Below, one piece after another: positions 16,497 through 57,673 of a stretch of 64,000 nucleotides of DNA (positions are counted from its first letter, which is position 1; each line of letters starts with the position of its first letter). Under the pieces are notes generated by a model, which was not told the origin of the DNA, did no database searches, and saw nothing but the letters and a program-made list of their open reading frames with translations. Location: the NCBI GenBank assembly GCA_964387895.1, contig CAYLWX010000002.1:15779-79778 (forward strand), in the 5' to 3' direction. Position numbers and translations under genes: made by a program. The stretch is from an uncultured Bdellovibrionales bacterium. Lineage in GTDB: Bacteria > Patescibacteriota > Minisyncoccia > Moranbacterales > UBA2206.

Positions 16497-16505
16497 AAAA
16501 TAATG

Positions 16506-19180: not shown

Positions 19181-19189
19181 TGGGTTATA

Positions 19190-35632: not shown

Positions 35633-35636
35633 AATA

Positions 35637-36452: not shown

Positions 36453-36495
36453 AATAGAGTTATCGATTATTGAAGCGAGGGTAGACACAATACTT

Positions 36496-36622
36496 AAATT
36501 TCCAATTCCCAAATCCCAATTTCCAATAAATGTCCAATGACCAAATTCCAAAAATTTTGCACATTGGGATTTGGGGTCCCGAGTACCCGGAATTGGAAAT
36601 TAGATATTGGGAATTGGAAATT
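36496..36622. repeat. family-A dyad element, copy with embedded GTCCCGAGTACCCGG palindrome
   Basis: aaatttccaattcccaaatcccaatttccaataaatgtccaatga ... ttgcacattgggatttggggtcccgagtacccggaattggaaattagatattgggaattggaaatt. Between hydG and the hydrogenase small subunit. Confidence 0.7.
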
Positions 36623-36687: not shown

Positions 36688-38082
36688 TTAGAAATACAAA
36701 TCTCTCTCTCCCTTCTCAATTCTCCCCAGTCTCTTTTCTGTCTCTTTTCTTACTTTCTTACTCGGTATTTCCCGCAGGTATTTTTTCATAATGTGTTCGC
36801 CTGATTCGCGCTCTTTGGGAGTGGCGTAATCTTCAAGATATTCTTTAAACGTGAGAATCGCGTTGGGGCGGCAGAAATTGTGAATGTTTCCAGGTTTGGC
36901 CAGATCCATAAAAGTCTCTCCGGTTCTTCCGGTTCGATAACAGGCGGTGCAAAAACTGGGAAGCAATTTTTGTTTTAAGATGCCCTGAATAAATTCCGCC
37001 ACGCTTCGATGATCGCTGGTATGAAACTGTTCTAATCTTTGTTCCTTTCCATATCCTCCCGGAGAAGTACGGGAGGCCGCGCTGGTTTGGGAAATGCCGA
37101 TCTTGAAAGCCCGCGAGCGAATTTGCGGCCGCTCGCGAGTGGAAATAATCATGCCGGTATAAGGTACGGCGAGGCGAAGTATCGCAATGATACGAAGCAA
37201 GTCCTGCTCGCTTACATGATACTTCGATTTGAAGGTTACCGTATCGGCCGGTTGCAATCGCGGTACGGAAATGGTATGCGGACCCACGCCGAATTTTTTC
37301 TCGAGATATTTCGCGTGGGAAAGCAGCCCTAATACTTCAAAACGATAATCGTATAATCCAAATAATACTCCCAATCCCACATCATCAATGTCAGCCCGAA
37401 AAGCGTTATCATGGGCAAAAAGCTGCCGCCGAAAATCAGCCTTGGGCCCATAGTGAAGCTTCTCGTAAGTTTCCAGGTGATACGTCTCCTGAAATAACTG
37501 ATACGTTCCGATGCCGGCCTTTTTGAGTTTGCGGTAATTTTCCACCGAAGTCGCGGCAATATTCACGTTCACTCTTCTGATAGCGCCGTTTTTTGATTTA
37601 GTTCCATAAATAGTTCTGATCACTTTCACTACATAATCAATAGTATTTTCTCCGGGATGCTCTCCAAATTCGAGCAGTAACCGCTTATGTCCCATATCCT
37701 CCAGTATTTTTACCTGTTCTTGTATCTCTTTTAAGGTAAGTTTTTTTCTCAGCGCCTTGTTACGCGCGTGAAACCCGCAATATTCGCAATCGTTCACGCA
37801 AAAACTGGAAATGTATAACGGGGCAAACAGCACCAGCCGTTCGCCGTATATTTCATCCTTGATCCTGCCCGCGACCTGGAATATTTCTTTCCAAAGCGCC
37901 TTGTCTTCGACCTGCAATAAATATCCGGCTTCCCTAAGATTCAGCCCCTTCTTTTTTTTAGCCTTTTCAAGCACAGAGCGCACCACTTCCTGTGAAGGGT
38001 TTTGCGTAGCACGTAATATAGCAACTATTTTTTTCTCGTTGATTATTGTTTTAATGTCAGACATAAAAAAATAATACCTCAT
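36688..38082 (-). CDS. hydG: [FeFe]-hydrogenase maturase HydG-like radical SAM tyrosine lyase
   Basis: Radical SAM CVNDCEYCGF (Cx3Cx2C) and a C-terminal CTAC-x22-C (Cx2Cx22C) auxiliary-cluster motif that distinguishes HydG from ThiH. ~460 aa. Confidence 0.7.
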   Translation of the reverse strand: MRYYFFMSDIKTIINEKKIVAILRATQNPSQEVVRSVLEKAKKKKGLNLREAGYLLQVEDKALWKEIFQVAGRIKDEIYGERLVLFAPLYISSFCVNDCEYCGFHARNKALRKKLTLKEIQEQVKILEDMGHKRLLLEFGEHPGENTIDYVVKVIRTIYGTKSKNGAIRRVNVNIAATSVENYRKLKKAGIGTYQLFQETYHLETYEKLHYGPKADFRRQLFAHDNAFRADIDDVGLGVLFGLYDYRFEVLGLLSHAKYLEKKFGVGPHTISVPRLQPADTVTFKSKYHVSEQDLLRIIAILRLAVPYTGMIISTRERPQIRSRAFKIGISQTSAASRTSPGGYGKEQRLEQFHTSDHRSVAEFIQGILKQKLLPSFCTACYRTGRTGETFMDLAKPGNIHNFCRPNAILTFKEYLEDYATPKERESGEHIMKKYLREIPSKKVRKETEKRLGRIEKGERDLYF

Positions 38083-38130
38083 ACTTTACGAAGGGGCGAG
38101 GGAGGACAAGGACATAACTAAAATATGGCA

Positions 38131-38160
38131 GGAGCGGGTTTGCAAACCCGCTCCTCTATT
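38131..38160. terminator. hairpin ggagcgggtttgcaaacccgctcc with flanking T-rich run, downstream of doxX and upstream of hydG
   Basis: Perfect 10-bp stem with a 4-nt loop. Confidence 0.4.
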
Positions 38161-38190: not shown

Positions 38191-38628
38191 CTATTTCGTC
38201 TCTTCTGTTTTATTAGAGTATTCGCATACCCCCAATACTCTTGCCAAAGAATATTTCCCCACTCCTAAAAGCGTGATGCTCAGCGCGGCAAGAAGCAATA
38301 CTAAATCATATTCATATCCTCCTACAAAACCCTTGCTAAACTTGACCAGGAAGATCGCTCCCACCATTACTGCCGCGATTCCTATTCCTGCCATCCGCAC
38401 GCACAATCCTAAAATCATAGCGGCCCCTCCTAATGTTTCAATTGCTATCACAAGATAGGCAAGAAAAGCAGGAACTCCCAAAACGCCAAAAAATCCTACC
38501 GTACTGTCGAGCGTGGTAAGTTTTTGGATTCCATGAACTAAAAACACCACTCCCACTCCTAACCGGATAAGCAATATGCCCACATTAGGACGGCGTATCC
38601 ATTGGCGCTTGTTTCCACACATACACAT
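38191..38628 (-). CDS. DoxX family membrane protein
   Basis: LIRLGVGVVFLVHGIQKL, four TM helices. Confidence 0.7.
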   Translation of the reverse strand: MCMCGNKRQWIRRPNVGILLIRLGVGVVFLVHGIQKLTTLDSTVGFFGVLGVPAFLAYLVIAIETLGGAAMILGLCVRMAGIGIAAVMVGAIFLVKFSKGFVGGYEYDLVLLLAALSITLLGVGKYSLARVLGVCEYSNKTEETK

Positions 38629-38702: not shown

Positions 38703-38779
38703 TGGTGCACGCATCCGGACTCGAACCAGAGACCTCTTCAGTGTGAATGAAGCGCTCTAACCAACTGAGCTATGCGTGC
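38703..38779 (-). tRNA. tRNA-Val (anticodon CAC), CCA encoded
   Basis: Reverse complement GCACGCATAGCTCAGTTGGTTAGAGCGCTTCATTCACACTGAAGAGGTCTCTGGTTCGAGTCCGGATGCGTGCACCA. Confidence 0.9.
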
Positions 38780-38784: not shown

Positions 38785-39462
38785 TTATATATCAATAGTA
38801 AAAAGTATCCTATCCCCGCTTCCTTCGAACGCTTCCTTTTCCAGTGGATTTTTCAAAATTTCCCGAAGAACAAGATTATCCGGAGTATTTTGCAAAGCTC
38901 CTTCATCCATAAAAAACGCTTTTGCCAGGGCGGGAGCATTATTCACACTGGAGTAATATTTCAGCGTTCCAATACTTTGAAATCCCAGCGAATCATAAAA
39001 TCCTTCATGTTTAGGATTAATGGCAATACACAGTGTGTCAATATCGTGAAAATGCGCGTAGTAAAAAACCACACGAAACAGCGAAAGCAATACTAATGAC
39101 TGCGCTTTTATTTTATTTTTCCCTATACCCTCCATATGCTCCCTATTGATCGCCAGTTGGGAAATTTCCGCGATTTTTCTGTTTTTATTTCTTAGCGCGT
39201 TTACCTCTTCTTTATAAATAGCTTCCATGGGCATGCCACGCGCTCCGTCTGTTACAATAGAAATAGTCGCAAGTAAAGTTTCCCCTATCCCAGCCTGAAA
39301 TGTAACAGATACCGGGAGAAGATTACCATGGGATACTGGATTTTTTTTTGAGCGCTCCGCTTTATCAATATACCCTTCTTTCAGGTATTCTTTACGCACT
39401 AATTGGGAAGATTTTTCAAACTTGTCTTTGGAGACGATAAGAGAAAAGACAATTTCAGACAT
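38785..39462 (-). CDS. putative acyl-ACP-dependent N-acyltransferase (OlsB / N-acyl amino acid synthase-like GNAT-fold)
   Basis: 225 aa. Weak resemblance to the Acetyltransf_5/OlsB family. Last gene of a nine-gene operon that also encodes an ACP, a PPTase and a PlsC acyltransferase. Assignment is tentative. Confidence 0.35.
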   Translation of the reverse strand: MSEIVFSLIVSKDKFEKSSQLVRKEYLKEGYIDKAERSKKNPVSHGNLLPVSVTFQAGIGETLLATISIVTDGARGMPMEAIYKEEVNALRNKNRKIAEISQLAINREHMEGIGKNKIKAQSLVLLSLFRVVFYYAHFHDIDTLCIAINPKHEGFYDSLGFQSIGTLKYYSSVNNAPALAKAFFMDEGALQNTPDNLVLREILKNPLEKEAFEGSGDRILFTIDI

Positions 39463-39469
39463 ATCCTTT

Positions 39470-41050
39470 TTAATATTGAGGCATTAAAATTACTTCCCTT
39501 TCATGCACTCCGCTCAGTATCTCGGTGAAGTTATCATCAGAAATTCCTGTTTCTATTTCCGCTTTTATATTTTTTCCATTTCTTACCATGTTCACAAAGC
39601 TTTTTCCTCCCGCTTTTTCTATATAACGGCCAGGCACTCTTATCGCGGTATCTTTTCTTCCAAATTCAATCCTGGCATCCGCCGTCATCCCTTCCCTGGC
39701 GCCAAAAACGAATCCCTCCAAAGATATGTTAGCTCTATAATATACATCTCCATTTTTATTCATCGGCTGGGGATCGATGGAAGTCACTTTTCCGGTTACT
39801 TTTTCGTCAGGGAAAGCCTTCAACTTCACATTCACATTATTCCCTATACTCACGTTCACGATATCCTCTTCCGGAACATCCGCGTGCAACTTTTGGTTAA
39901 AGGCGGAAAAAATCACCGCCGTTTGTCCTCCGGGAAACGCGGGAATAACTTCAGACTCTTTGAATAAAGTTTTCATTACCATTCCGTCCATTGGCGCTTT
40001 CAGAGTTGATTTATCAAGTTTATTATTCAAAATATCTATATTACTATGTATAAAATCAACTTCACTTTGAGCCATTCGCACGTCCTCGCTTCTCACCTTC
40101 GCGTCCGCGAACACAAGATTTTTCTGGGCTACATCACGATCGCCCTTCGCCTCACCCAAATCTATTACTGACTCTCTCACCGCGACCTTCGCCGCGTCCA
40201 TATTAGTTCTGGCCAAAGAAACGGAAGATTTCCATGAATCTATAGTAGCCTGGGACACGCCGTTATCCGTAGTAAGCTGGTTCACCGCCTGGGCAATTTT
40301 GTCCAGATAAGACTGGATGCTATCCATCCGGCTGTACCCTTTATCTAATGCATCGTCCAAATCATCTGAATACTCCAGCGCGTCCACTGAATCTTCCCAG
40401 TCATCAAGCTTTTCTTCCAATGAGCTTCTTTTAGATTCGATGTCACTCTCAAGACTGGAATCTCCAATGGTAAAGTTTAACCGGGGATTAGCGCTATCAG
40501 GATTAGAAAACATCTGGTTGGTTTTTCCGCGAACCGAGTCTTCTCCCGCCGTGTAAGCGCTCCTGACTACATCTACCAGGGCCTTCTTCGCGTCCTTAAT
40601 GGAACTGTTATAGGCTTTTACTTTTTCCTTATAGACTTGGATGCTTTCTTCGGTAGCTCCTGCCAGTATTTTGTCCAGATTCGCCTGGGATTTAATTAAA
40701 GACGCGTTAAGTCCCTTCATTTCCAGATCCAGATCATTGGTCTCAAGTTTCATAAGCGGATCCCCCTTCTTCACCGTAGCGCCCGCGGGAGCAAAAATTT
40801 TCTCGACTTTTCCGGAAAAAGAATAGGCCAGATTAAGATTTTCTTCCGAAACAACCACCGCGTCATCTATATCCACGTATTTTACCACTATGCCCCTTTC
40901 CGCCTGTACTGATTCTCCTGACTGCCCTTTATTATTGCTTGATTTATTATCATCTTTTTCAGCGGCCAAAATGCTCGCGCCCAAGAATACAAGCATAACC
41001 GAATTAGCGATGAAAAATAATATGATTAATATTTTTTTTATTTTTACCAT
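39470..41050 (-). CDS. HlyD/MacA-family periplasmic adaptor (membrane fusion) protein
   Basis: N-terminal TM anchor, ~200-aa coiled-coil hairpin, biotinyl/lipoyl-like and beta-barrel segments. Confidence 0.7.
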   Translation of the reverse strand: MVKIKKILIILFFIANSVMLVFLGASILAAEKDDNKSSNNKGQSGESVQAERGIVVKYVDIDDAVVVSEENLNLAYSFSGKVEKIFAPAGATVKKGDPLMKLETNDLDLEMKGLNASLIKSQANLDKILAGATEESIQVYKEKVKAYNSSIKDAKKALVDVVRSAYTAGEDSVRGKTNQMFSNPDSANPRLNFTIGDSSLESDIESKRSSLEEKLDDWEDSVDALEYSDDLDDALDKGYSRMDSIQSYLDKIAQAVNQLTTDNGVSQATIDSWKSSVSLARTNMDAAKVAVRESVIDLGEAKGDRDVAQKNLVFADAKVRSEDVRMAQSEVDFIHSNIDILNNKLDKSTLKAPMDGMVMKTLFKESEVIPAFPGGQTAVIFSAFNQKLHADVPEEDIVNVSIGNNVNVKLKAFPDEKVTGKVTSIDPQPMNKNGDVYYRANISLEGFVFGAREGMTADARIEFGRKDTAIRVPGRYIEKAGGKSFVNMVRNGKNIKAEIETGISDDNFTEILSGVHEREVILMPQY

Positions 41051-41061
41051 AGCGTTAAAAT

Positions 41062-41790
41062 CTATACATGTTGGGCACGGGAGTAAAAACGATTTTTTTC
41101 ATTTCCAACAAGCTTTCCATCCCGGAGAGTGATAATCCTGTCAGCCGATTGGGCTTCTTCTCTTTCATGAGTCACCAATATCATGGTTCTATGAAACACC
41201 TTATTTGCTTTTTTCAAAAAATCAATAACCATCCGTCCATTTTCTAAATCAAGATGAGCAGTAGGTTCATCTACGAGGATAATGAGAGAATCTTTCGCCA
41301 ACGCCCTGCCAATAGCCACTCTCTGCTGTTCTCCCCCTGAAAGCTCCCGCGGAAAGAAAGAAGCTCTGTCCTTAAGACCCAGAAAATCAATAATGCGCTG
41401 CGCCCTGCTTTTAGCCTCACTGCCGCTTAATCGCTGCAACTTTAACTGAAAAATAATATTTTCAACCGCCGTGTAATTTTCTATCAGGTTAAAAAACTGA
41501 AAAATAAATCCTACGGATTGCAACCGAAATTTATTTTTTTCCTTTTCAGAAAGCTTTTGAGTATCATTGCCATTTATAATTATTTTTCCGCCGGTAGGAT
41601 CGTCCAGAAGGCCGAGAAGGTTAAGCAAGGTTGTCTTGCCCGATCCGGATGAACCGTTAATAGCCAGAAATTCACCCCGCGAGACTTCAAAACTTACTCC
41701 GTTAAGAGCCGGCACTGTAACATATTTGCTCACTTTATATTCTTTATAAAGGTCCTGGACGCTTATTAACGTATCCGCAGTTTCATCCAT
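41062..41790 (-). CDS. ABC transporter ATP-binding protein, MacB/LolD/FtsE-type
   Basis: GSSGSGKTT Walker A, LSGGEQQRVAIGRAL signature, ILVDEPT Walker B. Confidence 0.85.
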   Translation of the reverse strand: MDETADTLISVQDLYKEYKVSKYVTVPALNGVSFEVSRGEFLAINGSSGSGKTTLLNLLGLLDDPTGGKIIINGNDTQKLSEKEKNKFRLQSVGFIFQFFNLIENYTAVENIIFQLKLQRLSGSEAKSRAQRIIDFLGLKDRASFFPRELSGGEQQRVAIGRALAKDSLIILVDEPTAHLDLENGRMVIDFLKKANKVFHRTMILVTHEREEAQSADRIITLRDGKLVGNEKNRFYSRAQHV

Positions 41791-42981
41791 TTAGATAGCA
41801 TTACGAATTACGTCTGCGATTCTTGTTTTAGCGGCAATGTAGGAAGGAATAATGCTTCCCGCAAGTGAAGCTCCCACTAGAATAAAAAATAATTTTATTG
41901 CTTCTCTTTCCACAAAGACAGTGTGAAAATCTCCAATCAAAAGATTTATAGGATGGTTAGTCGAGTAAATATTCAGCAGCATAAACAACAGAAAACCGAT
42001 AAAATAGGACAAGCTGGCATACACAAAGGTCTCGAAAATATAAATTGCGACCACAAATCTGTTGCTCGCTCCCATTGACTTAAGAATTCCAATCTGTCTT
42101 CGGCGCTGAAATACGTTAATAAATATTATCACACTCATTATAACAAACGTAGTTTCAATTAACAAATTAGTAATACTTCCCGTGATAAACACTACCGCCG
42201 CGATAATGTCCTTAATGTATCCTGCTTCGTCTTCCCACGTAAACACCGCTATCCCCTGCAATTGATTCTGAATTAACCTGCGGACATCCTCCATCCTGGA
42301 GGAGTCTTTCAGTCTCACGACTATCTCACTATCCTTTCCTCGTCCATCTATGCGTTCTGTTTCTTTTTTAGGCAAGACAGCCCACCAGTTGGAAAGAAAG
42401 TTTTTAGCGTCAAAAATTCCTACCACCGTATAGTTTTCCCATTCCCCTTCAACCGATCTGATTTTTACTTGTTCTCCTACGCGAATCATCTTTCCATCAT
42501 ACGCCAATCCTTCCAACGCGTCGGCAAACGTAATTCCCAGAGCAACGCTTTTAGTGTCATGCGGGTCAATAAACCTGCCGTGAATAATTCGCTCGGAAAC
42601 CTTCGAAGTTCTAATCTCGTTGAATACATCGACTCCCAGAATCGCATAGGGACGACTTATCCGGTTATCGTATTCGAAATCTGCCTGCCCATGGTTTCTT
42701 ATGCTGTAAGATTCCACTTCTTTTATCCGGGAAAGGTACTCCGCTACTTCGGATACATTTTCTATCTTCTTCTTTTTTTTCTCCGGCTTTACACGCAGAT
42801 GAGCATTAGTATCAACTTCCCCGTTTATTAAAGTTGCCTTAAACCCTTCCAGCACGCCAGAAGAAATAAACACCGCGGTAAACGCCGAACTTAGGCTTAT
42901 AATCGTAAGCACTAACACGGTCCTGCTTTTGGAAACATCTCTTAAGGCAAACGATATGAGGATGAGTATTCTGTTTAGCAT
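41791..42981 (-). CDS. ABC transporter permease, FtsX/MacB-type with large extracytoplasmic domain
   Basis: TM1, a ~220-aa periplasmic domain, three C-terminal TM helices. Abuts the ATPase gene. Confidence 0.75.
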   Translation of the reverse strand: MLNRILILISFALRDVSKSRTVLVLTIISLSSAFTAVFISSGVLEGFKATLINGEVDTNAHLRVKPEKKKKKIENVSEVAEYLSRIKEVESYSIRNHGQADFEYDNRISRPYAILGVDVFNEIRTSKVSERIIHGRFIDPHDTKSVALGITFADALEGLAYDGKMIRVGEQVKIRSVEGEWENYTVVGIFDAKNFLSNWWAVLPKKETERIDGRGKDSEIVVRLKDSSRMEDVRRLIQNQLQGIAVFTWEDEAGYIKDIIAAVVFITGSITNLLIETTFVIMSVIIFINVFQRRRQIGILKSMGASNRFVVAIYIFETFVYASLSYFIGFLLFMLLNIYSTNHPINLLIGDFHTVFVEREAIKLFFILVGASLAGSIIPSYIAAKTRIADVIRNAI

Positions 42982-42998
42982 GGGATATATTGTATGAA

Positions 42999-43892
42999 TC
43001 AGGTTCTACGCGACTTCAATAAAAATTTTTTCGCGTACCAGATTTTTAGTCTTTGCGTGATATTTTTATTACCGCCATAAATATACTTTTTTTTGTATTT
43101 TTTCACAAAGGGATCAAACTGAGACACAAAGGGAACCGTGTCTACTTTTTTACCAAGAATAATTTTAACAATCTCAGAACCAACCAGGACGGCGCACATT
43201 AGTGGTCCAATTCCAAGCGAAGGCGCTTTTTGGTCGTGAAAATCAATCGATTGCGGACGGAAATAAGAAGAGTGAATAAGAAAAGGACTTACCCCGAGAG
43301 AAAACCGTACCATCATTTCAGAATAATCCATGGCATCATCTATATTAAAATACTCTTCAAATGTCATACCTGATGGATCAAACACCAAAAGGGAAGCACC
43401 AAATCCTATCGGTCCGGAAGTTATCACAGGGATCCCTTTTCTTCTGGCTTCTCGAAAAAGCATCAAGCGATCCTTTATACAGAAAAAATCCAACCCGTCT
43501 ACTGCCACATTTGCCCCTTCTAAAAATATATCTACATTGTCTTTATGTATTCCATCCTCAAAAGCAGTTATATGTAAGAACGGATTTATGGCTTTAGCCA
43601 TTTTTCTCATTACCTCGCATTTTTTTTCTCCTAACGTGTTCGTATTGGCGCCCGCCTGGCGATTAATGTTAGCAACTTCGAAGGAATCAAAATCAGCAAT
43701 TGAAAAGTTTCCAATGCCGACCCTGGAAAGACTTAAGAGATAATTCCCGCCTACTCCGCCCATTCCCGCGATAGCAACTTTGGCCATCTTTAACTTATTC
43801 TGTTCTGAGAGTGATAAAACGCCAATATTTCTAGCATAAGCTTCCTGGTAAAAATCACTTTTCTTTTTCTCAAAATGTGTGTCATTAACCAT
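42999..43892 (-). CDS. ThiF/MoeB/HesA-family E1-like adenylyltransferase
   Basis: IAGMGGVGGNYLLSLSRVGIGNFSIADFDSFEVANINRQ is the E1 Rossmann nucleotide-binding motif. Confidence 0.7.
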   Translation of the reverse strand: MVNDTHFEKKKSDFYQEAYARNIGVLSLSEQNKLKMAKVAIAGMGGVGGNYLLSLSRVGIGNFSIADFDSFEVANINRQAGANTNTLGEKKCEVMRKMAKAINPFLHITAFEDGIHKDNVDIFLEGANVAVDGLDFFCIKDRLMLFREARRKGIPVITSGPIGFGASLLVFDPSGMTFEEYFNIDDAMDYSEMMVRFSLGVSPFLIHSSYFRPQSIDFHDQKAPSLGIGPLMCAVLVGSEIVKIILGKKVDTVPFVSQFDPFVKKYKKKYIYGGNKNITQRLKIWYAKKFLLKSRRT

Positions 43893-43906
43893 GTGGTAAG
43901 AGGCCG

Positions 43907-44668
43907 TTATTTTTTGTTAATAAAATTCAATGCCTCATTAAGGATATCCGGATTCACGTTTATAAAAGAATGCCCGCACGTAAGTTCTTTGAAATTTCCC
44001 TTCCGGGAAATTTGGTATTTCAGGGGAACGAGAATGTCTTTCCTGCAGGAAATATACAAATGCTTTTCGACTGAATTTTTATCCTGTATATATTCTAATA
44101 CTCCATTCCACGGTTCTGGATTAAAGGAAAAATTCTTATTATACTTATACGCTAATTCTGTGCTGGGAATAGGGATTGCGGGAGATATGATGGTAACCAG
44201 CTTGTCTACTTTTTCAGATCCATGCAACTTTTCTACGTAGTATCTTGCCGTGACTCCCCCCAGACAAATACCGATAATATTTAATTTTTTAGTCTTAGTT
44301 TCTTTAAGCACCTCGTCCACGTATTGACTAAGTTTCTTCGCTGACATATCCGGAGAGTCTTTATAATCATATTCAAATGAAACTACGCGCAATCCATTCT
44401 CCTTGAACCAGAGTGCCGTTCCGTATACATCCTTGTAGTACTCAGCCCCCGCTCCATGCACAAGAATAGTTAGCGAAGTTTGATTTTTTTTCGCATTCTC
44501 TATGCTTTCCTCATTGAATGTGTCCATTTTTTCCCTGGTTCCCGAGAGAGAAATCAGACTATAATACAGCTTGCTGCTGAAATTATTAAAATAATTAGAT
44601 GAGTTCAACCACGCAATAACCAAAAGCACTGTCAATACTACTACGATGATACCCGCTATTTTAAACAT
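43907..44668 (-). CDS. alpha/beta-hydrolase (lipase/esterase-like) with N-terminal TM anchor; nucleophile elbow is G-I-C-L-G (Cys in place of Ser)
   Basis: LVHGAGAEYY oxyanion region and IIGICLGG elbow. Confidence 0.55.
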   Translation of the reverse strand: MFKIAGIIVVVLTVLLVIAWLNSSNYFNNFSSKLYYSLISLSGTREKMDTFNEESIENAKKNQTSLTILVHGAGAEYYKDVYGTALWFKENGLRVVSFEYDYKDSPDMSAKKLSQYVDEVLKETKTKKLNIIGICLGGVTARYYVEKLHGSEKVDKLVTIISPAIPIPSTELAYKYNKNFSFNPEPWNGVLEYIQDKNSVEKHLYISCRKDILVPLKYQISRKGNFKELTCGHSFINVNPDILNEALNFINKK

Positions 44669-44694
44669 TGGATTATGATAATAATTTTTAGAAT

Positions 44695-44940
44695 TTACGT
44701 ATGCAACACTTCGGTGGCATATTTTACAATGTCCCCGACCGTTTCTATTCTTATCAATTCATCGTACTGAAGTCTTCGATTAAATTTTTTCTCAAATGCC
44801 ATAATAAGAGAAAATACCTGTATAGAGTCTTTGCATAAGTCCTCAATTTTTGAATCCATGGTTATCTCTGCTCGGTTTATTTTTAATTGTTCGCGGAGTA
44901 TATCATACACCGCATTGGTTATTTTTTCCTGACTTTCCAT
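44695..44940 (-). CDS. acyl carrier protein-like
   Basis: 81 aa. LCKDSIQVFSLIMAFEKKF fits the ACP helix-II DSL phosphopantetheine-attachment motif. Confidence 0.6.
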   Translation of the reverse strand: MESQEKITNAVYDILREQLKINRAEITMDSKIEDLCKDSIQVFSLIMAFEKKFNRRLQYDELIRIETVGDIVKYATEVLHT

Positions 44941-44944
44941 ACTG

Positions 44945-45661
44945 TTATGTTATAAAAACCTGGGAAACTACATAGTTATTATTGAATATCAACCATTGTA
45001 TTTTTGACGCCATGTAAGTACCTTCTTGTTTTAAAGCAAATTTTCCCTTGTTATCCTTACTTATAACTAACGATCCCGGGTGAATGAGGAGCCCCTGTCC
45101 ACAAGCCTTAAGATATGATTCCTTGATGCTCCAAAAAAGAGTAGCCATAATATTTTTTTCATCTTTCGAATTATCAGACAAGTACCCCAATTCTTCATTC
45201 GTAAGAAAATCTTCCAATAATTTTTGGGTAAACGTCTGTATCTTCTCAATATCCACGCCCACGTATCCGCTTCTTTCTTTCCACGACACCGACGCGATTC
45301 CTATTCCGTCTGTATGAGCTATACTAAGATCAATTTTCCTGTTTATAGAATTAATCCTTTTACTAAGTCTTCTTCTTGTGCGGTATGAAGGTTTTCGAAA
45401 TTTTCCACTCTCAATTTCAATCTCATGAAGAGGGATGAAGACAAAACAACTGTTGTAAAAAAAATTACTGAGTGCGATCTTGGCTGCAACTCTTCCCGCT
45501 ATCCAATCATCTCTTTTCACCCGGTGCTTCCCCTGGTATTCTTCCCACTCTCTATCAGTAAGATACTCTCTTAGCGGCAGGCTTTGTAGCATTTTTTGGT
45601 CTGCAATCGCGATCATCTTAATTAGAATAACTGTTTTCCAAAGCCAGATTATCAATGGCAT
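44945..45661 (-). CDS. 4'-phosphopantetheinyl transferase (Sfp-type)
   Basis: GVDIEKIQ and FWSIKESYLKACGQG match the PPTase (V/I)G(I/V)D and (F/W)(S/C/T)xKE(S/A)xxK motifs. Confidence 0.7.
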   Translation of the reverse strand: MPLIIWLWKTVILIKMIAIADQKMLQSLPLREYLTDREWEEYQGKHRVKRDDWIAGRVAAKIALSNFFYNSCFVFIPLHEIEIESGKFRKPSYRTRRRLSKRINSINRKIDLSIAHTDGIGIASVSWKERSGYVGVDIEKIQTFTQKLLEDFLTNEELGYLSDNSKDEKNIMATLFWSIKESYLKACGQGLLIHPGSLVISKDNKGKFALKQEGTYMASKIQWLIFNNNYVVSQVFIT

Positions 45662-46265
45662 TTTTTACAACATCGATATTTTTAAATTCTTCACTATATT
45701 CATATACCGGACTGAAAATCAACTGGCGCTGAGGATTCCAGACAGCCAGCCAATTACTTCTTTGAAATCCGACCATTTTAACAAACACGATATTCTCTGC
45801 CACGTCAACAAAAAAGGTTACCCCCAGATGAAAATCAGACAAATCGTTACTAGCGCATATTTTCCCTTCCGGAAACAGCATAATAGTTTTTCTGTCTATT
45901 AAATATTGGCGAGTCCGAAAAAGATTAGCCATTTTATCCTTTTTAGTATTTCCAATATCATAACAGCCTAGAATCGAAAAAAATCTTAACTTAGTATAAT
46001 ATTCATGTGAAGTGGGGAATCGCACAGGCAGTACTTTTATGAAGGTGCAAAAAGGAAGACGAGCAAGAATTAAAAATGGGTCCAACACTGATTGATGATT
46101 GGAGATAATCAGAGATCCTTTTTTCAATTGTCCGATATTATCAGAAATGCTGTTAACTGATCTGAAAAAATAACGCAGGAAACGAGAAAACACAACATAC
46201 GCCATGATCTGAGTAAGGGTTATAGCGTAGTCAACTGCTTTTCGCGAAAATATGTTGCTTTGCAT
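45618..46265 (-). CDS. PlsC-family lysophospholipid acyltransferase-like protein
   Basis: IISNHQSVLDPF (HxxxxD acyltransferase motif) and FPEG motif. Start set at MQSNIF. The track ORF extends to 46337. Confidence 0.65.
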   Translation of the reverse strand: MQSNIFSRKAVDYAITLTQIMAYVVFSRFLRYFFRSVNSISDNIGQLKKGSLIISNHQSVLDPFLILARLPFCTFIKVLPVRFPTSHEYYTKLRFFSILGCYDIGNTKKDKMANLFRTRQYLIDRKTIMLFPEGKICASNDLSDFHLGVTFFVDVAENIVFVKMVGFQRSNWLAVWNPQRQLIFSPVYEYSEEFKNIDVVKNAIDNLALENSYSN

Positions 46266-46477
46266 GATTTTTAGATAACCCCCATGAGATACATAATCGA
46301 AAATCAACCAGCAACCAGCTTTTTGCTCATTTCTCAACTCGCCTAATAGTAAATAATGGTGTTTGAAGCAATCATACCAAACTCGTAATGATAATGCAAA
46401 ATGCCGGAGTCAATTTTCTGGATTGCTCGCGCGCGGTATCGGTGCTATAATCCCAAAAAGCTGCAGCATCCTTATTT

Positions 46478-47536
46478 ATGGAAACCATTAGAGATTATAT
46501 CGTAGAAATACTCCAGGACGGACATCTGGCCCCTTCAGCGGATAATGCCCAGCCGTGGTTTTTTAATATTGAAGGCGACTCTATAGTGGTTACCCATGAC
46601 GTTGAAGCCACTCACGCCAACCATCTCTACAATCTTGATTATTTCGCGGATTACATAAGCTTAGGATGTGTAGTGGAAAATATTTTTATTAGCGCAAAAC
46701 GATACGGATATACCGCCGGCATTGTATCAACCGATCATAGCAACGGCCGATTTTCTATTCGAATTAAACTAGATAAAACACACGCTCCGTCAACTCTCCC
46801 TTTGTATGAAGCTATCAAAGAAAGAAAGACTGATCGCAACGCCTATCTCCAGAAGAAAATTCCCGGGCGTATTAGCAGGGAGTTATGTGCTATCACCTCA
46901 ACGCGGGGAGCTACTCTTCATTGGATAGAAAACGATTCCTTGCTTTCCTCGTTCGCTGACACAATAGCTCTGCATGACGCCATTTTATGGGAAGACGAAG
47001 CGGTAAGAATAAATCTTCTCCGAATGATCCGATTGGATAATAAGAAGTGCGAAGATGGATTGCCTATAAAAAGCCTCGGCTTGGGAATAAAGAGACATCT
47101 TTTTTATCCTTCCATAAAAATAGCCGGACATCTCCCTCTTTTTTGGAAAGTGCTGAAGTACAGCTCAATAGACCACACCAGAAAAAATACAAAAAAATCC
47201 GCCGCCCTGGGTATTCTTACTATGCCTAAAGAACATAGCCCACTTACCTACCTGGAAGGCGGAAGAATAATGCAATCTCTCTGGATTAATCTGACAATGA
47301 ATAAAATATCCTTCCAGCCTCTTTTCGGATCAGTAGCGTTAATACTGAACAGTAAACTTGGCACGGAAGGATTGTCAGAAAAACACAAGAAAATAAGAGA
47401 TACTATTTCAAATTTTTTCTATAGCCAAATTCCAGAACTTCAAACCGCTACTCCCATCGCGATTTTCCGCGTGGGATATGCCAGCAAACCTGCAGTAAGA
47501 TCGGGGAGAAAAAAATTAGACGCGGTAGTGCGGTAA
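46478..47536 (+). CDS. two-domain nitroreductase-family protein
   Basis: PSADNAQPWFF N-terminal nitroreductase motif. ~350 aa, consistent with tandem nitroreductase folds (SagB/Acg-like architecture). Confidence 0.5.
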   Translation: METIRDYIVEILQDGHLAPSADNAQPWFFNIEGDSIVVTHDVEATHANHLYNLDYFADYISLGCVVENIFISAKRYGYTAGIVSTDHSNGRFSIRIKLDKTHAPSTLPLYEAIKERKTDRNAYLQKKIPGRISRELCAITSTRGATLHWIENDSLLSSFADTIALHDAILWEDEAVRINLLRMIRLDNKKCEDGLPIKSLGLGIKRHLFYPSIKIAGHLPLFWKVLKYSSIDHTRKNTKKSAALGILTMPKEHSPLTYLEGGRIMQSLWINLTMNKISFQPLFGSVALILNSKLGTEGLSEKHKKIRDTISNFFYSQIPELQTATPIAIFRVGYASKPAVRSGRKKLDAVVR

Positions 47537-47559: not shown

Positions 47560-48828
47560 TCATCTTTCAATTTCCTCCCTCATTCTCTCCTCCAGCATCT
47601 GATAACTTTCTTCGGCTTTAAATAAGCCGTATTTTTCCCAAATATTTCCTTCTTCGTGAAATTTATTAGCATATATTTTATACAGCGGACGATATTTCGG
47701 CGGGGTGAGATTAAACATCAAAGAATTCGCGCCGGCCGTAAGCGCTTGTTTTCTAATGTCTTTTCCTGCTAATGTTTCCAACGCCGTTACCACCGGAATG
47801 CGGCCGGTTTTCATCATGAGACGCAACACCGCGATCATATTGAGAATTAATTGTACGTCTCCGACCGGCTGACCTTCCATAGGAGTATTATTCCCCGGCA
47901 CAAACGGACCAAAGCTGGCCATATGGGCCAGTTTTTTAATCAGCAGTACATCATCGGCAATATCTTCGATCGTCTGTCCGGGAAATCCTACAATGGATCC
48001 GGTCGCAATAAAGTAGCCGATACTTTTTAAATATCCCAAAGTTTCCAACCGGTTTTTCAAATTTTTTCCATGCGTATGAAATTTTTTGAAAAGTTCCAGG
48101 TTGGAAGTTTCAAAACGAAACAGTACTCCCGACGCGCCCGCTTCTTTCATTTTTTTGTACGCCTCTTTGCTTCGCTCTCCGACACTCATAAAAATAAACG
48201 CTTTGGCGCGATTTTTGATGCCTGTGATAATTTGAAGCAACATCTCGTCAGTATAAAACAAGTCTTCCCCCGACTGGAGCACGAAAAGCTTATATCCTTT
48301 TTCATCTACTGCCTGTACGGCCGTCTCTATAATTTCCGCAACACTCATACGGTAACGTTCTATGGCAGCATTTTGCGCCCGCAGTCCGCAATAAGCACAA
48401 TCATTTTTGCAATAATTGGAAAACTCTATAATGCCGTGAATACAAATAAAATCTTTAAGATAGGTTTTACGCAAAACATCCGCCTCGGCAAAAAGCGCTT
48501 CTCTTTCATCCCCTTCCGCCCTGAGAAGATATATAATTTCTTCTTTGGTTAAATCTCTTTCTTTTGACGCGGTGATTATATCTTTAAATTCTTGCGATAG
48601 CTTTTCCTTGTCCGCCAAAGGATGAAAATTCTCCAACAAACTGATAATTTCCTTCGCGTCAATTTCTGAAATTTTCCGGACCGCGGTATTGGAAGTATAC
48701 AGCAACCAGTCCCCGACTTTAAGATCGGGAATATAAGAAGCCAGAACTTTTCGACTTGAATTCGAGTCGTTAATAATGGCAAAATTGCCTTCCAGTTTAG
48801 TTACTTTGGCGGGGATGGTGAGACACAT
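47560..48828 (-). CDS. hydE: HypC-domain / HydE radical-SAM fusion protein
   Basis: N-terminal MCLTIPAKVTKLEGNFAIIN...VGDWLLY aligns to HypC/HybG (MC(I/L)xxP...GN.A.V...VGxWVL). The rest matches HydE: IIEFSNYCKNDCAYCGLRAQNAAIERYRM, FVLQSGED, GSIVGFPGQTIEDIADD. Confidence 0.7.
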   Translation of the reverse strand: MCLTIPAKVTKLEGNFAIINDSNSSRKVLASYIPDLKVGDWLLYTSNTAVRKISEIDAKEIISLLENFHPLADKEKLSQEFKDIITASKERDLTKEEIIYLLRAEGDEREALFAEADVLRKTYLKDFICIHGIIEFSNYCKNDCAYCGLRAQNAAIERYRMSVAEIIETAVQAVDEKGYKLFVLQSGEDLFYTDEMLLQIITGIKNRAKAFIFMSVGERSKEAYKKMKEAGASGVLFRFETSNLELFKKFHTHGKNLKNRLETLGYLKSIGYFIATGSIVGFPGQTIEDIADDVLLIKKLAHMASFGPFVPGNNTPMEGQPVGDVQLILNMIAVLRLMMKTGRIPVVTALETLAGKDIRKQALTAGANSLMFNLTPPKYRPLYKIYANKFHEEGNIWEKYGLFKAEESYQMLEERMREEIER

Positions 48829-57659: not shown

Positions 57660-57673
57660 CCCTATAGAACAAA

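What the first reader, a model, noticed from the sequence alone, without database searches (positions are those of the whole stretch)
38785..46337. Nine-gene operon pairing a dedicated ACP/PPTase with N- and O-acyltransferase-like enzymes, a Cys-elbow hydrolase, a ThiF-like E1 and a MacAB-type exporter
Seen: nine minus-strand genes with 0-26 bp gaps or overlaps. In transcription order they are a PlsC-like acyltransferase with the HxxxxD motif (NHQSVLD), an Sfp-type PPTase, an 81-aa ACP-like protein with a DS(I/L) motif, an alpha/beta hydrolase, a ThiF/E1-like protein, an FtsX/MacB permease, an ABC ATPase, a HlyD adaptor, and a 225-aa GNAT-fold protein resembling OlsB/N-acyl-amino-acid synthases. 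Established: OlsB (N-acyltransferase using acyl-ACP) plus OlsA (PlsC-family O-acyltransferase) make ornithine lipids. N-acyl amino acid synthases with their own ACP occur in exosortase loci. MacAB/YknXYZ-type pumps export lipidic or peptidic cargo. Inference: this is a self-contained system making an acylated small molecule, such as a lipoamino acid or aminolipid, on its own carrier protein and exporting it. That is unexpected in an organism whose ribosomal-protein signatures suggest a CPR-like reduced genome normally lacking fatty-acid and lipid biosynthesis. There is no acyl-ACP synthetase, FAS gene or YcaO in the window. How the ACP is loaded is therefore open. The hydrolase or the E1-like enzyme are candidates.
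Basis: partly seen in the sequence, partly recalled or inferred. Interest (0 to 1): 0.65.

Follow-up and report, generated by a model that had tools for sequence, protein, structure and literature searches.

The report
CPR lipoamino-acid/oxazolone gene cluster with own ACP
A tiny-genome (CPR, Moranbacteria-like) bacterium that should not make lipids carries a conserved ten-gene cluster that most likely builds a fatty-acylated amino acid on its own carrier protein, cyclises and desaturates it as in the recently described oxazolone pathways, and pumps it out.

Summary
All nine minus-strand genes are present, tightly packed, and every family call passes HMM tests.

It encodes an FDO-type nitroreductase. 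Together with the FeeM-type N-acyl amino acid synthase and the ThiF-like protein it forms the triad of the OxzAB/TyzABC/TrzAS acyl-oxazolone and stieleriacine-type N-acyl-dehydrotyrosine pathways. Each of the three window proteins also matches a consecutive domain of a single fusion family (NF011425).

The ThiF-like enzyme is therefore most likely the ATP-dependent cyclase, not the ACP loader. The synthase is FeeM-like, not OlsB-like.

What is new is the add-on module of PlsC-like acyltransferase, Sfp-type PPTase and ACP, usually with a MacB/HlyD pump. Among ThiF loci it occurs in the four named CPR MAGs, in the unclassified MAG SZUA-486 and in three unnamed metagenome contigs, and in none of about 70 other loci, mostly Proteobacteria, Desulfobacterota and Planctomycetota. 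Close PlsC-like relatives are always in such clusters.

The Cys hydrolase is a membrane-anchored lipase of the B. subtilis LipA type that probably faces outward. How the ACP is acylated remains open.

Verdict: a new variant of a known kind, of moderate to high interest.

The parts
46478..47536 (+). FDO-type (Acg/TyzC-like) nitroreductase-superfamily flavoenzyme. It is transcribed divergently from the operon and is the predicted C-alpha/C-beta desaturase.
   Evidence: full-length NCBIfam hits to the FDO domain of the NF005901 Rv1355c/TrzS family (positions 376-717 of 722, E 1.6e-38), to the NF011424 ThiF-FDO fusion (329-672 of 679, E 3.7e-38) and to the NF047509 Acg family (E 1.6e-34); profile A2 hits PDB 2YMV MsAcg at E 2.8e-19. 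The gene is linked to the cluster in L001, L003, L085, L091, L092 and L094.
46266..46477 (.). 212-bp divergent intergenic region, the probable promoter region for both transcription units.
   Evidence: TGcTATAAT (an extended -10) lies at 46453-46461 on the + strand, ahead of the FDO ATG at 46478; a TTTGCA-18-TATGAT match lies on the - strand at 46400-46371. The scan as a whole is no better than chance, so both sites are weak evidence.
45618..46265 (-). PlsC-superfamily acyltransferase, 215 aa from ATG 46265 (the ORF extends to TTG 46337). It is a dedicated partner of the ACP.
   Evidence: PF01553 at E 2.5e-7; best NCBIfam hits are the acyltransferase domains of Aas-type acyl-[ACP]--phospholipid O-acyltransferases (E 4.5e-9). 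NHQSxxD and FPEG are invariant; all 12 close relatives in metagenomes lie next to ThiF, PPTase, ACP, FeeM or FDO genes.
44945..45661 (-). Sfp-type 4'-phosphopantetheinyl transferase. The likely true start is Met16 at 45616.
   Evidence: PF01648 at E 1.4e-17; TIGR00556 in two stretches; HetI, EntD and AcpT hits.
44695..44940 (-). 81-aa acyl carrier protein. The predicted attachment site is Ser39 in the DSI motif.
   Evidence: PF00550 at E 3.6e-8; AcpP-type NCBIfam models at E 3e-16; the DS(I/L) motif is conserved in 8 homologues.
43907..44668 (-). Membrane-anchored alpha/beta hydrolase of the minimal-lipase (B. subtilis LipA) type with a Cys133-Asp211-His233 triad. The catalytic domain is predicted to be outside the cell.
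   Evidence: Cys is conserved in the nearest relatives and is Ser in remoter ones; only 33 representatives at E <= 1e-10 among 1.84 billion. AF2 pLDDT 94; nearest solved structures are LipA and Lip_vut1 (TM 0.85, rmsd 2.5 A). N-terminal TM helix preceded by Lys residues. The gene is present only in the window's closer relatives (L001, L003, L004).
42999..43892 (-). ThiF-family adenylating enzyme, predicted ATP-dependent cyclodehydratase (N-acyl amino acid to oxazolone).
   Evidence: NF006077 equivalog at 351 bits (cut-off 266); it also matches the ThiF domains of the fusion families NF011424 and NF011425; same equivalog as the ThiF of the Roseiconus 3xFeeM-ThiF-FDO cluster; the GxGGxGG, D67/D69, NxNRQ, K91 and D132/D135 positions are invariant. 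The sequence has no CxxC motif; pLDDT 93; structural neighbours are AclA, ThiF, PaaA, MoeB, MccB and TcdA.
41791..42981 (-). MacB-type (type VII) ABC permease.
   Evidence: MacB_PCD at E 4e-14 plus FtsX at E 1e-11.
41062..41790 (-). ABC ATPase of the MacB/LolD/DevA type.
   Evidence: ABC_tran at E 6e-33; LolD, DarD and MacB models at E 1e-51 to 1e-62.
39470..41050 (-). HlyD/MacA-like membrane-fusion adaptor, 526 aa.
   Evidence: HlyD_D23 and HlyD_3; TIGR01730 at 103 bits (cut-off 95).
38785..39462 (-). [quoted passage not shown]
   Evidence: PF21926 at E 1.1e-33. PDB 2G0B FeeM at E 1.2e-30; matches the N-terminal domain (36-198) of fusion family NF011425; the FeeM His/Phe residues implicated in ACP/Ppant binding are conserved (INPKHxxFY).

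Best explanation
This is a ten-gene biosynthetic and export cluster in a Moranbacteria-like CPR bacterium. It is a carrier-protein-dependent variant of the acyl-oxazolone / N-acyl-dehydroamino-acid pathway known from OxzAB, TyzABC, TrzAS and the stieleriacine-type clusters.

Proposed steps:
1. The Sfp-type PPTase converts the 81-aa ACP to its holo form at Ser39. This is inferred from family membership.
2. The ACP is charged with a fatty acyl group. This step is open. The conserved candidate is the PlsC-like acyltransferase acting as an acyl shuttle between acyl lipids (or acyl-CoA) and the ACP. An unlinked FakAB/PlsX or AasS route is the alternative.
3. The FeeM-like synthase transfers the acyl group from acyl-ACP to the alpha-amine of an amino acid, most likely an aromatic one. 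This rests on strong homology to ACP-dependent FeeM.
4. The ThiF-like enzyme adenylates the carboxylate and cyclodehydrates it to a 5(4H)-oxazolone. This rests on family membership, fusion families and biochemical precedent.
5. The divergently encoded FDO flavoenzyme desaturates C-alpha/C-beta, giving a 4-ylidene-oxazolone or, after ring opening, an N-acyl-dehydroamino acid.
6. The MacB-type ABC pump with its HlyD adaptor exports the product or places it in the envelope.
7. The outward-facing Cys lipase-like hydrolase is an accessory, present only in the closer relatives. It either frees acyl chains from external or host lipids, or opens or transfers the reactive azlactone outside the cell.

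The module of PlsC-like acyltransferase, PPTase and ACP is there because the lineage lacks a fatty-acid synthase to supply acyl-ACP.
For: - All ten family assignments are supported.
- Rosetta-stone evidence: the FeeM-like, ThiF-like and FDO proteins match consecutive domains of the single family NF011425 (FeeM 36-198, ThiF 310-594, FDO 625 onward). ThiF and FDO also match NF011424 and the Rv1355c/TrzS family NF005901.
- Biochemistry of the triad is published: OxzAB (bioRxiv 10.1101/2020.06.11.147165), TyzABC (PMC10404671), TrzAS (PMC12856293). [quoted passage not shown]
- The window ThiF is in the same NCBIfam equivalog as the ThiF of a Pirellulaceae 3xFeeM-ThiF-FDO cluster.
- Census from the ThiF side: 36 of 49 loci with at least 4 kb of flank on both sides have FeeM or FDO within 8 kb. 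Several of the rest are long ThiF ORFs that may be fusions; this was not checked.
- Content is conserved with shuffled order in L001, L003, L004, L008, L009, L010, L015, L085, L089-L099 and L113.
- The ACP module occurs in the four named CPR loci, in the unclassified MAG SZUA-486 and in three unnamed metagenome contigs. It is in none of about 70 other loci, mostly Proteobacteria, Desulfobacterota and Planctomycetota.
- Close PlsC-like relatives are always in such clusters, 12 of 12.
- L099 has the PlsC-like gene, PPTase, ACP and FeeM without any ThiF on the contig, so the ACP module serves FeeM.
- FeeM is ACP-dependent, and its ACP/Ppant contact residues His and Phe are conserved here.
- The ACP is AcpP-like.
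- CPR bacteria are reported to lack lipid biosynthesis (PMC11665869).
Against: - There is no biochemical data for any protein of this cluster type, and the product is unknown.
- No ACP-loading enzyme is identified. A reverse or transacylating role for a PlsC-family enzyme has no direct precedent that I could cite.
- The characterised OxzA, TyzA and TrzA use acyl-CoA, not acyl-ACP.
- The FDOs of Tyz and Trz need O2. This organism carries a NiFe hydrogenase and looks anaerobic.
- The Saccharibacteria and Paceibacterota versions show no FDO in the fetched loci.
- TyzB's own membership of NF006077 was not tested. No Mtb sequence was available, and the AFDB fold library was unavailable.
- The window genome beyond 64 kb could not be inspected for fab, acpP, plsX or fak genes.
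Confidence: 0.62

Rival explanations
1. First reader's model. This is an OlsB/OlsA-like aminolipid pathway. The GNAT-fold enzyme N-acylates an amino acid from acyl-ACP, and the PlsC-like enzyme then O-acylates the product to give a diacylated lipoamino acid. The ThiF/E1-like enzyme or the hydrolase loads the ACP.
For: An N-acyltransferase, a PlsC-family acyltransferase and an ACP are all present and strictly co-occur. The best NCBIfam hits of the PlsC-like protein are acyl-ACP-dependent O-acyltransferase domains. An alpha/beta hydrolase next to FeeM in L015 hits the OlsI O-acyltransferase model weakly, at E 3.6e-4.
Against: The synthase is FeeM-family, with no OlsB/Acetyltransf_5 hit. The ThiF is in the equivalog family that partners FeeM and FDO in organisms without this ACP, and L099 has the ACP module without ThiF. 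The hydrolase is LipA-like and predicted to face outward, and it is missing from most clusters. O-acylation of the OlsA type needs a 3-hydroxyacyl chain from FAS II, and no FAS genes are found in the window. The model gives the FDO no role.
Confidence: 0.1
2. E1-style relay. The ThiF-like enzyme adenylates the N-acyl amino acid. The Ppant thiol of the ACP captures it as a thioester. The PlsC-like acyltransferase then esterifies the N-acyl-aminoacyl group onto a hydroxyl acceptor such as a lysolipid, glycerol or a sugar, making a new ester-linked lipoamino-acid lipid. The synthase draws on acyl-CoA.
For: The model gives every conserved gene a role and solves ACP loading. ThiF usually sits next to the PlsC-like gene, PPTase and ACP. 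E1 enzymes classically pass adenylates to thiols. Known OxzA, TyzA and TrzA use acyl-CoA (PMC10404671, PMC12856293).
Against: L099 keeps the PlsC-like gene, PPTase, ACP and FeeM without ThiF. The ACP is AcpP-like, not PCP-like. The FeeM-like enzyme retains FeeM's ACP/Ppant contact residues. The ThiF is orthologous to those working without any ACP.
Confidence: 0.1
3. The cluster is primarily a lipid-salvage and membrane-remodelling system, not a secondary-metabolite cluster. An outward lipase, a MacB/LolCDE-like transporter and the PlsC-like acyltransferase with its ACP scavenge and re-esterify host acyl chains. The N-acyl amino acid is a structural membrane aminolipid.
For: CPR bacteria lack lipid synthesis, and no uptake route is known (PMC11665869). 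Lipase-type genes recur next to the cluster: LipA-like in the window, L001, L003 and L004; GDSL lipases in L085; another alpha/beta hydrolase in L015. The permease gives its best, though sub-threshold, hit to LolC/E.
Against: The ThiF and FDO partners are dedicated to oxazolone or dehydroamino-acid chemistry in all characterised systems. MacB/HlyD systems are known as exporters. The cluster is patchy among CPR genomes; only a minority of the fetched ThiF loci are from CPR bacteria. Patchiness suits an accessory trait more than core membrane biogenesis.
Confidence: 0.08
4. This is a RiPP-type system. The ThiF (MccB/PaaA-like) and the nitroreductase (azoline-dehydrogenase-like) modify a ribosomal peptide, which is lipidated by the GNAT-fold enzyme and exported by the ABC pump.
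For: PaaA and MccB are among the structural neighbours of the ThiF model. GNAT-mediated RiPP lipidation exists (mentioned in PMC11685415). An ABC pump with a HlyD adaptor is typical of bacteriocin loci.
Against: There is no room for a precursor gene: gaps are at most 26 nt inside the operon. No YcaO or peptidase is present. The ThiF and FDO families are those of the small-molecule oxazolone synthetases.
Confidence: 0.02

Closest known systems
TyzABC (M. tuberculosis), OxzAB (Pseudoalteromonas rubra) and TrzAS acyl-oxazolone pathways
   Same: [quoted passage not shown] As in TyzABC, the three are separate proteins. The window FDO and ThiF match the corresponding domains of the Rv1355c/TrzS family model.
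   Different: The synthase here is FeeM-family and presumably acyl-ACP-dependent, whereas OxzA, TyzA and TrzA use acyl-CoA. A dedicated ACP, PPTase, PlsC-like acyltransferase, MacB/HlyD pump and Cys lipase are added. The host is a probably anaerobic CPR bacterium, whereas the known desaturases use O2.
[quoted passage not shown]
   Same: FeeM-like NAS genes lie next to a stand-alone ThiF of the same NCBIfam equivalog (NF006077) and a stand-alone FDO. This was verified on the Roseiconus locus L059.
   Different: Those clusters have no ACP, PPTase or PlsC-like module and rely on housekeeping acyl donors. They often have several NAS copies and methyltransferases. Their products are ring-opened N-acyl-dehydrotyrosines.
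FeeM/FeeL N-acyl tyrosine synthase system from soil eDNA (PDB 2G0B)
   Same: It is the closest solved homologue of the 225-aa protein (E 1.2e-30). It has a cognate ACP encoded alongside, and its ACP/Ppant contact residues are conserved here.
   Different: From my own knowledge, not tested here, the fee cluster has no ThiF cyclase or FDO and comes from an organism with normal fatty-acid synthesis.
OlsB/OlsA (ornithine lipid) and GlsB/GlsA (glycine lipid) aminolipid pathways
   Same: Both pair an N-acyltransferase with a PlsC-superfamily acyltransferase that uses acyl-ACP.
   Different: The N-acyltransferase family differs (PF13444 against PF21926). Those pathways need 3-hydroxyacyl-ACP from FAS II and have no ThiF, FDO, dedicated ACP/PPTase or pump.
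MacAB / YknXYZ / DevBCA type VII ABC exporters
   Same: A MacB_PCD+FtsX permease, a separate ATPase and a HlyD-family adaptor are encoded together.
   Different: The cargo is unknown. There is no outer-membrane partner gene. The pump is embedded in a biosynthetic cluster of a CPR bacterium.

Membership tests
Acyl-oxazolone / N-acyl-dehydroamino-acid pathway (OxzAB, TyzABC, TrzAS, NasY clusters) | [quoted passage not shown] | tested here: met
   PF21926 FeeM at E 1.1e-33; PDB 2G0B at E 1.2e-30.
Acyl-oxazolone / N-acyl-dehydroamino-acid pathway (OxzAB, TyzABC, TrzAS, NasY clusters) | A ThiF-family adenylating cyclase of the clade that partners NAS and FDO. | tested here: met
   NF006077 at 351 bits (cut-off 266). 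The protein matches the ThiF domains of NF011424 and NF011425. The ThiF of the Roseiconus NAS-ThiF-FDO cluster is in the same equivalog. TyzB itself could not be compared.
Acyl-oxazolone / N-acyl-dehydroamino-acid pathway (OxzAB, TyzABC, TrzAS, NasY clusters) | An FDO-subgroup nitroreductase-superfamily flavoenzyme. | tested here: met
   The gene at 46478-47536 hits the FDO domain of NF005901 at E 1.6e-38 and the Acg family NF047509 at E 1.6e-34. The profile hits 2YMV at E 2.8e-19.
Acyl-oxazolone / N-acyl-dehydroamino-acid pathway (OxzAB, TyzABC, TrzAS, NasY clusters) | The three genes are linked across genomes or fused. | tested here: met
   fusion families NF011424 and NF011425.
Acyl-oxazolone / N-acyl-dehydroamino-acid pathway (OxzAB, TyzABC, TrzAS, NasY clusters) | ATP-dependent cyclisation and O2-dependent desaturation produce an oxazolone. 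| not testable with these tools
   This needs enzymology and LC-MS. The host's NiFe hydrogenase suggests anaerobiosis, which would require a different electron acceptor.
[quoted passage not shown] | FeeM fold or domain with the His/Phe residues implicated in ACP/Ppant binding. | tested here: met
   The INPKHEGFY motif aligns with FeeM NPKHDTFY. The residues are named in PMC11685415. They are conserved in all CPR homologues.
[quoted passage not shown] | A cognate ACP is encoded nearby. | tested here: met
   The ACP lies at 44695-44940. The ACP co-occurs with FeeM in all module-bearing loci.
OlsB/OlsA-type aminolipid synthesis | An OlsB-family (Acetyltransf_5, PF13444) N-acyltransferase. | tested here: not met
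   There is no such hit at E <= 0.1. Only FeeM and a weak Acetyltransf_4 hit were found.
OlsB/OlsA-type aminolipid synthesis | A PlsC-family O-acyltransferase. | tested here: inconclusive
   PF01553 is met at 31 bits (cut-off 23) with HX4D and FPEG present. TIGR00530 scores 29 bits against a cut-off of 103. The motif II Arg and motif III Thr-Arg, which bind phosphate in LPAATs (my own knowledge), are not conserved.
Canonical E1 / ThiF-MoeB sulfur-carrier activating enzymes | A ubiquitin-like, ThiS or MoaD substrate gene, plus CxxC zinc motifs or a catalytic Cys. | tested here: not met
   Scores are below the cut-offs for the ThiF, MoeB and TcdA equivalogs. The sequence has no CxxC motif. There is no room for a small carrier gene in the operon.
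MacB-type (type VII) ABC exporter with membrane-fusion adaptor | A MacB_PCD+FtsX permease, an ABC ATPase and a HlyD-family adaptor are adjacent. | tested here: met
PEP-CTERM/exosortase-associated N-acyl amino acid synthases | A match to that NCBIfam/TIGRFAM model, with an exosortase context. | tested here: not met
   The only NCBIfam hit of the 225-aa protein at E <= 0.1 is NF011425. No exosortase or PEP-CTERM gene was seen in the window ORFs scanned.

The most novel reading that the evidence does not exclude
The module of PlsC-like acyltransferase, PPTase and ACP is a fatty-acid-synthase-independent way of making acyl-ACP. In some lineages it is helped by an outward-facing Cys lipase or by GDSL lipases. 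The PlsC-like enzyme would run as a transacylase, taking acyl chains from scavenged or host (lyso)phospholipids onto a private carrier protein. That would be the first acyl-salvage mechanism described for CPR bacteria and would fit their reported lysolipid enrichment. The exported reactive acyl-oxazolone (an azlactone, an activated ester) would act as a host-directed effector or acylating agent.
Probability: 0.18. Interest if true: 0.85.

Novelty: new variant of a known kind. Interest (0 to 1): 0.55.

Why it matters
CPR/Patescibacteria are described as lacking lipid biosynthesis, and no lipid uptake or breakdown mechanism has been identified in them (PMC11665869). My literature searches found no paper linking them to N-acyl amino acid synthases.

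Here a lipid-like specialised-metabolite cluster is conserved, with shuffled gene order, across Moranbacteria-, Saccharibacteria- and Paceibacteria-type genomes. It brings its own carrier protein, PPTase and a dedicated PlsC-like acyltransferase.

If the module really supplies acyl-ACP without a fatty-acid synthase, it gives a concrete, testable entry point into how these epibionts handle host acyl chains. If the product is an exported acyl-oxazolone or N-acyl-dehydroamino acid, it is a candidate signal or effector in the episymbiont-host interaction. It would also extend a very recently discovered natural-product class to anaerobes and to carrier-protein-dependent chemistry.

The cluster also attaches a function to NCBIfam families still named 'hypothetical protein' (NF006077, NF011424, NF011425).

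Tried and rejected
- A single-sequence phmmer search of the 352-aa protein against the PDB found nothing significant. A profile of 17 homologues was needed to reach MsAcg.
- The search for homologous proteins returned only 5 relatives of the FDO, so its alignment was built from ORFs in the fetched loci.
- The look-up of encoding contigs could not retrieve the 98-kb NCBI contig that holds the window. The rest of the genome could therefore not be checked for fab, acpP, plsX, fak or aasS genes.
- The listing of cluster members gave no organism names. Taxonomy came from named SecY relatives instead.
- The window's own genome was not among the best 80 loci returned by the GTDB representative scan, where the closest ThiF is 57% identical.
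- The AFDB fold library was unavailable, so structural comparison with TyzB and TyzC (P95234, P95233) was not possible.
- The top structural neighbour of the ThiF model, AclA of Tenacibaculum discolor (9EGB), could not be traced in the literature library.
- The promoter and terminator scan was no better than shuffled controls.
- The eight-sequence PlsC-like alignment was too divergent to seed a collection scan. A five-sequence alignment worked.
- The pyrD-like gene inside the cluster in L001 and L004 was considered as an alternative desaturase. It scores as a bona fide class-2 DHODH and is absent from the window, so it is left as an observation.
- DoxX, tRNA-Val and the HypC-radical SAM gene that flank the cluster were considered as members. 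They were rejected because they are not conserved next to it outside the closest relative.

Full report
**Observation**

The gaps between them are 4, 26, 14, 17, 0, 11 and 7 nt. The PlsC-like and PPTase ORFs overlap by 44 nt.

Homologue lengths (215-222 aa) and the alignments indicate that the PlsC-like gene really starts at ATG 46265, giving 215 aa. The PPTase probably starts at Met16 (45616).

Every family call was confirmed by Pfam and NCBIfam:
- Acyltransferase PF01553, E 2.5e-7, with NHQSVLD and FPEG.
- ACPS PF01648, E 1.4e-17, in two halves, with HetI, EntD and AcpT hits, so Sfp-type.
- PP-binding, E 3.6e-8, and AcpP-type models at E 3e-16. The DS(I/L) serine is conserved in eight homologues.
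- An alpha/beta hydrolase with a G-I-C-L-G-G elbow.
- ThiF PF00899, E 2.4e-41.
- MacB_PCD plus FtsX, ABC_tran, and HlyD.
- FeeM PF21926, E 1.1e-33, for the 225-aa protein. That protein also hits the FeeM crystal structure 2G0B at E 1.2e-30.

It has no OlsB/Acetyltransf_5 hit.

**A tenth gene and the known triad**

A 352-aa gene lies at 46478-47536 on the plus strand, transcribed divergently across a 212-bp spacer. It gives only weak Pfam nitroreductase hits.

NCBIfam gives full-length matches to three families:
- the flavin-dependent-oxidase (FDO) domain of the Rv1355c/TrzS family (positions 376-717 of 722, E 1.6e-38);
- the 679-aa family NF011424 (329-672);
- the Acg family (E 1.6e-34).

A 17-sequence profile finds the MsAcg structure 2YMV at E 2.8e-19.

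The ThiF-like protein passes the curated cut-off of equivalog NF006077 (351 bits against 266). It also matches positions 18-303 of NF011424 and 310-594 of the 989-aa family NF011425. The FeeM-like protein matches positions 36-198 of NF011425, and the FDO matches from position 625 onward.

So the three separate window proteins correspond to consecutive domains of one fusion protein family. This is a classical Rosetta-stone argument that they work together.

The literature library shows what this triad does:
- OxzA/OxzB of Pseudoalteromonas rubra is an N-acyltransferase plus a ThiF-nitroreductase oxazolone synthetase (bioRxiv 10.1101/2020.06.11.147165).
- TrzA/TrzS is a further example (PMC12856293).
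- NAS-ThiF-nitroreductase clusters occur in producers of stieleriacines, thalassotalic acids and kyonggic acids (PMC12479983).

The ThiF of a Roseiconus (Pirellulaceae) locus with three FeeM genes, a ThiF and an FDO belongs to the same equivalog as the window protein. Its FDO hits the same families.

**The ThiF-like protein**

The nucleotide-binding and catalytic positions are invariant across 27 relatives: GxGGxGG, D67/D69, NxNRQ, K91 and D132/D135. The sequence has no CxxC zinc motif. It scores below the cut-offs of the ThiF, MoeB and TcdA equivalogs.

The AF2 model is confident (pLDDT 93). Its structural neighbours are AclA (9EGB, function not traced), ThiF, PaaA, MoeB, MccB and TcdA.

There is no room in the operon for a ThiS/MoaD-like carrier or a precursor peptide.

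**Synteny**

I used a 27-sequence ThiF alignment to fetch 80 loci from GTDB species representatives and several metagenome contigs. I scanned their ORFs with profiles built from the window proteins.

Of 49 non-redundant loci with at least 4 kb on both sides, 36 have a FeeM-like or FDO gene within 8 kb of the ThiF. Several of the rest are long ThiF ORFs that may be fusions; this was not checked.

The full extended gene set recurs, in different orders, in:
- L001/L005 (MAG 'bacterium SZUA-486', ThiF 57% identical);
- L003 (78%);
- L004 (54%);
- L085 (48%).

The core of PlsC-like gene, PPTase, ACP and ThiF recurs in Candidatus Moraniibacteriota (L008), Saccharibacteria (L009, L015) and Paceibacterota (L010). 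FeeM accompanies it in L009, L010 and L015, and pump genes in L008, L009 and L015.

The trio of PlsC-like gene, PPTase and ACP is found only in these eight ThiF loci: the four named CPR MAGs, the unclassified MAG SZUA-486 and three unnamed metagenome contigs. It is in none of about 70 other loci, mostly Proteobacteria, Desulfobacterota and Planctomycetota.

I then searched from the other side. A metagenome scan with the PlsC-like protein gave twelve close relatives. All twelve are flanked by ThiF, PPTase, ACP, FeeM or FDO genes wherever the contig allows. The 23 distant PlsC hits are not.

L099 carries a radical SAM gene, the PlsC-like gene, PPTase, ACP and FeeM, with no ThiF on an 11.9-kb contig.

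**Organism**

The best named relatives of the window's SecY are Candidatus Moranbacteria and 'Parcubacteria group' proteins at 78-82% identity.

Ribosomal protein S5 is followed directly by L15, with no room for L30. From my own knowledge, this is a CPR trait.

Of the window ORFs of at least 130 aa on plausible strands (plus the 81-aa ACP), 51 were scanned. None is a FAS enzyme, an AMP-dependent ligase or a YcaO; 7 further ORFs of that size were not scanned. The Pfam lists for L001, L003, L004 and L085 show none next to the cluster either.

**The hydrolase**

The Cys133-Asp211-His233 triad is conserved. Cys occupies the nucleophile position in the nearest roughly ten representative clusters and Ser in the remoter ones.

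The family is small: 33 representatives at E <= 1e-10 among 1.84 billion.

The profile and the confident AF2 model (pLDDT 94) are closest to minimal secreted lipases, namely B. subtilis LipA and Lip_vut1 (target-normalised TM-score 0.85, rmsd 2.5 A).

An N-terminal TM helix preceded by lysines in all four homologues predicts an outward-facing catalytic domain. This makes the hydrolase an unlikely loader of a cytoplasmic ACP.

It is an accessory gene, present in the window, L001, L003 and L004. Other lineages have different lipase-type neighbours: GDSL lipases in L085 and another alpha/beta hydrolase in L015.

**Mechanism**

The steps supported by homology and published biochemistry are:
- phosphopantetheinylation of the ACP;
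- N-acylation of an amino acid by a FeeM-type, carrier-protein-dependent synthase, whose FeeM His/Phe ACP/Ppant contact residues are conserved as INPKHxxFY;
- ATP-dependent cyclodehydration by the ThiF-like enzyme;
- C-alpha/C-beta desaturation by the FDO;
- export by the MacB/HlyD pump.

The inferred and still open step is how the ACP receives its acyl chain. The PlsC-like enzyme is the only conserved candidate in the cluster, and its distribution is tied to the ACP. Its best database matches are the acyl-ACP-dependent acyltransferase domains of Aas-type enzymes.

It could shuttle acyl groups between lipids and the ACP, or it could use acyl-ACP to O-acylate something.

The restriction of the module to CPR and unclassified loci fits the published view that these bacteria lack lipid synthesis (PMC11665869). 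This is the best argument that the module exists to supply acyl-ACP where no fatty-acid synthase does.

**Rival models**

It gives no role to the FDO and needs ThiF or the hydrolase as loader, which the evidence above disfavours.
- An E1-style relay (ThiF loads the N-acyl amino acid on the ACP, and the PlsC-like enzyme esterifies it to an acceptor) is attractive. It is weakened by L099, by the AcpP-like nature of the ACP and by the orthology of the ThiF with ACP-less systems.
- A pure lipid-salvage role does not explain the ThiF and FDO.
- A RiPP reading lacks a precursor gene, a YcaO and a peptidase.

**Caveats**

- Nothing here is biochemical.
- The amino-acid substrate and acyl chain are unknown.
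- Known FDOs of this pathway use O2, while this organism encodes a NiFe hydrogenase.
- No FDO was found in the fetched Saccharibacteria or Paceibacterota loci.
- TyzB and TyzC themselves could not be compared, because the AFDB library was unavailable.

**Novelty**

The core is a known kind, described between 2020 and 2025. Two things are new:
- The self-sufficient, carrier-protein-dependent, pump-coupled variant, with a dedicated PlsC-like subfamily and, in some members, a Cys lipase.
- Its occurrence across several CPR lineages. My literature searches found no description of this.

I rate it a new variant of a known kind, with interest 0.55.

Noticed in passing
window 47560-48828 (-), 36688-38082 (-), 34373-36551 (-): A radical SAM protein with an N-terminal HupF/HypC domain (HypC + Radical_SAM + BATS) and a second BATS-containing radical SAM protein (HydG/ThiH-like) flank the cluster, next to NiFe-hydrogenase large and small subunit genes. 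A HypC-radical SAM fusion beside a NiFe hydrogenase is unusual. The HypC fusion is also present in the closest relative, L003.
   Followed up: partly
L001 18267-19391; L004 19436-20572: A bona fide class-2 (quinone-dependent) dihydroorotate dehydrogenase gene sits inside the cluster between the HlyD and FeeM genes in two relatives (352 bits against cut-off 267). It is absent from the window. DHODH performs a C-alpha/C-beta desaturation of a cyclic N-acyl amino acid analogue, so it could be a co-opted or alternative desaturase, or merely a passenger.
   Followed up: partly
window 38703-38779 (-) and 38191-38628 (-), terminator 38130-38155: tRNA-Val(CAC) lies 5 nt downstream of the FeeM-like gene. 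A DoxX-family membrane protein gene follows. The only strong bidirectional terminator-like hairpin (11 bp, 7 GC) comes after DoxX. The operon may therefore read through the tRNA.
   Followed up: partly
window 16990-18606 (-), with 15957-17006 and 18623-21103: There is a 538-aa fusion of dCMP deaminase and thymidylate synthase. It sits in a nucleotide-salvage block with DHFR, a dCTP deaminase-like protein, SHMT and two small kinase-like AAA proteins.
   Followed up: no
window 8953-12702 (-), 15176-15937 (-), 31924-32487 (+): Six ORFs of 157-375 aa have no Pfam match at E <= 1e-4. Four of them lie in a row between miaA and gatB.
   Followed up: no
L008 4174-5820 (-): In the Moraniibacteriota locus a 549-aa FAD_binding_4 (GlcD-like) oxidase lies convergent to the ThiF gene, where other clusters have the FDO. 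It may be a non-orthologous replacement of the desaturase.
   Followed up: no
L004 12253-13470; L028, L033, L069, L072 about 12 kb: An EryCIII-like glycosyltransferase is inserted between the PPTase and ACP genes in L004. Related glycosyltransferases follow ThiF-FDO pairs in several Rhodocyclaceae and Aromatoleum loci. This suggests glycosylated derivatives, as noted for some oxzB clusters in the OxzAB paper.
   Followed up: no
L087 7061-9098 and 11978-16054: A metagenome locus has two FeeM genes, each preceded by a PilZ-domain gene. These are followed by ThiF, FDO, an ABC ATPase, a MacB-type permease, a LolA-like TP_0789 protein and DUF1302. This is a Gram-negative-style export version with a possible c-di-GMP link. 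The trz paper also notes c-di-GMP genes beside trzAS.
   Followed up: no
window 57204-58183 (-): Ribosomal protein S5 is followed after 14 nt by L15, so there is no L30 gene. L1 is present at 21342-22028.
   Followed up: yes
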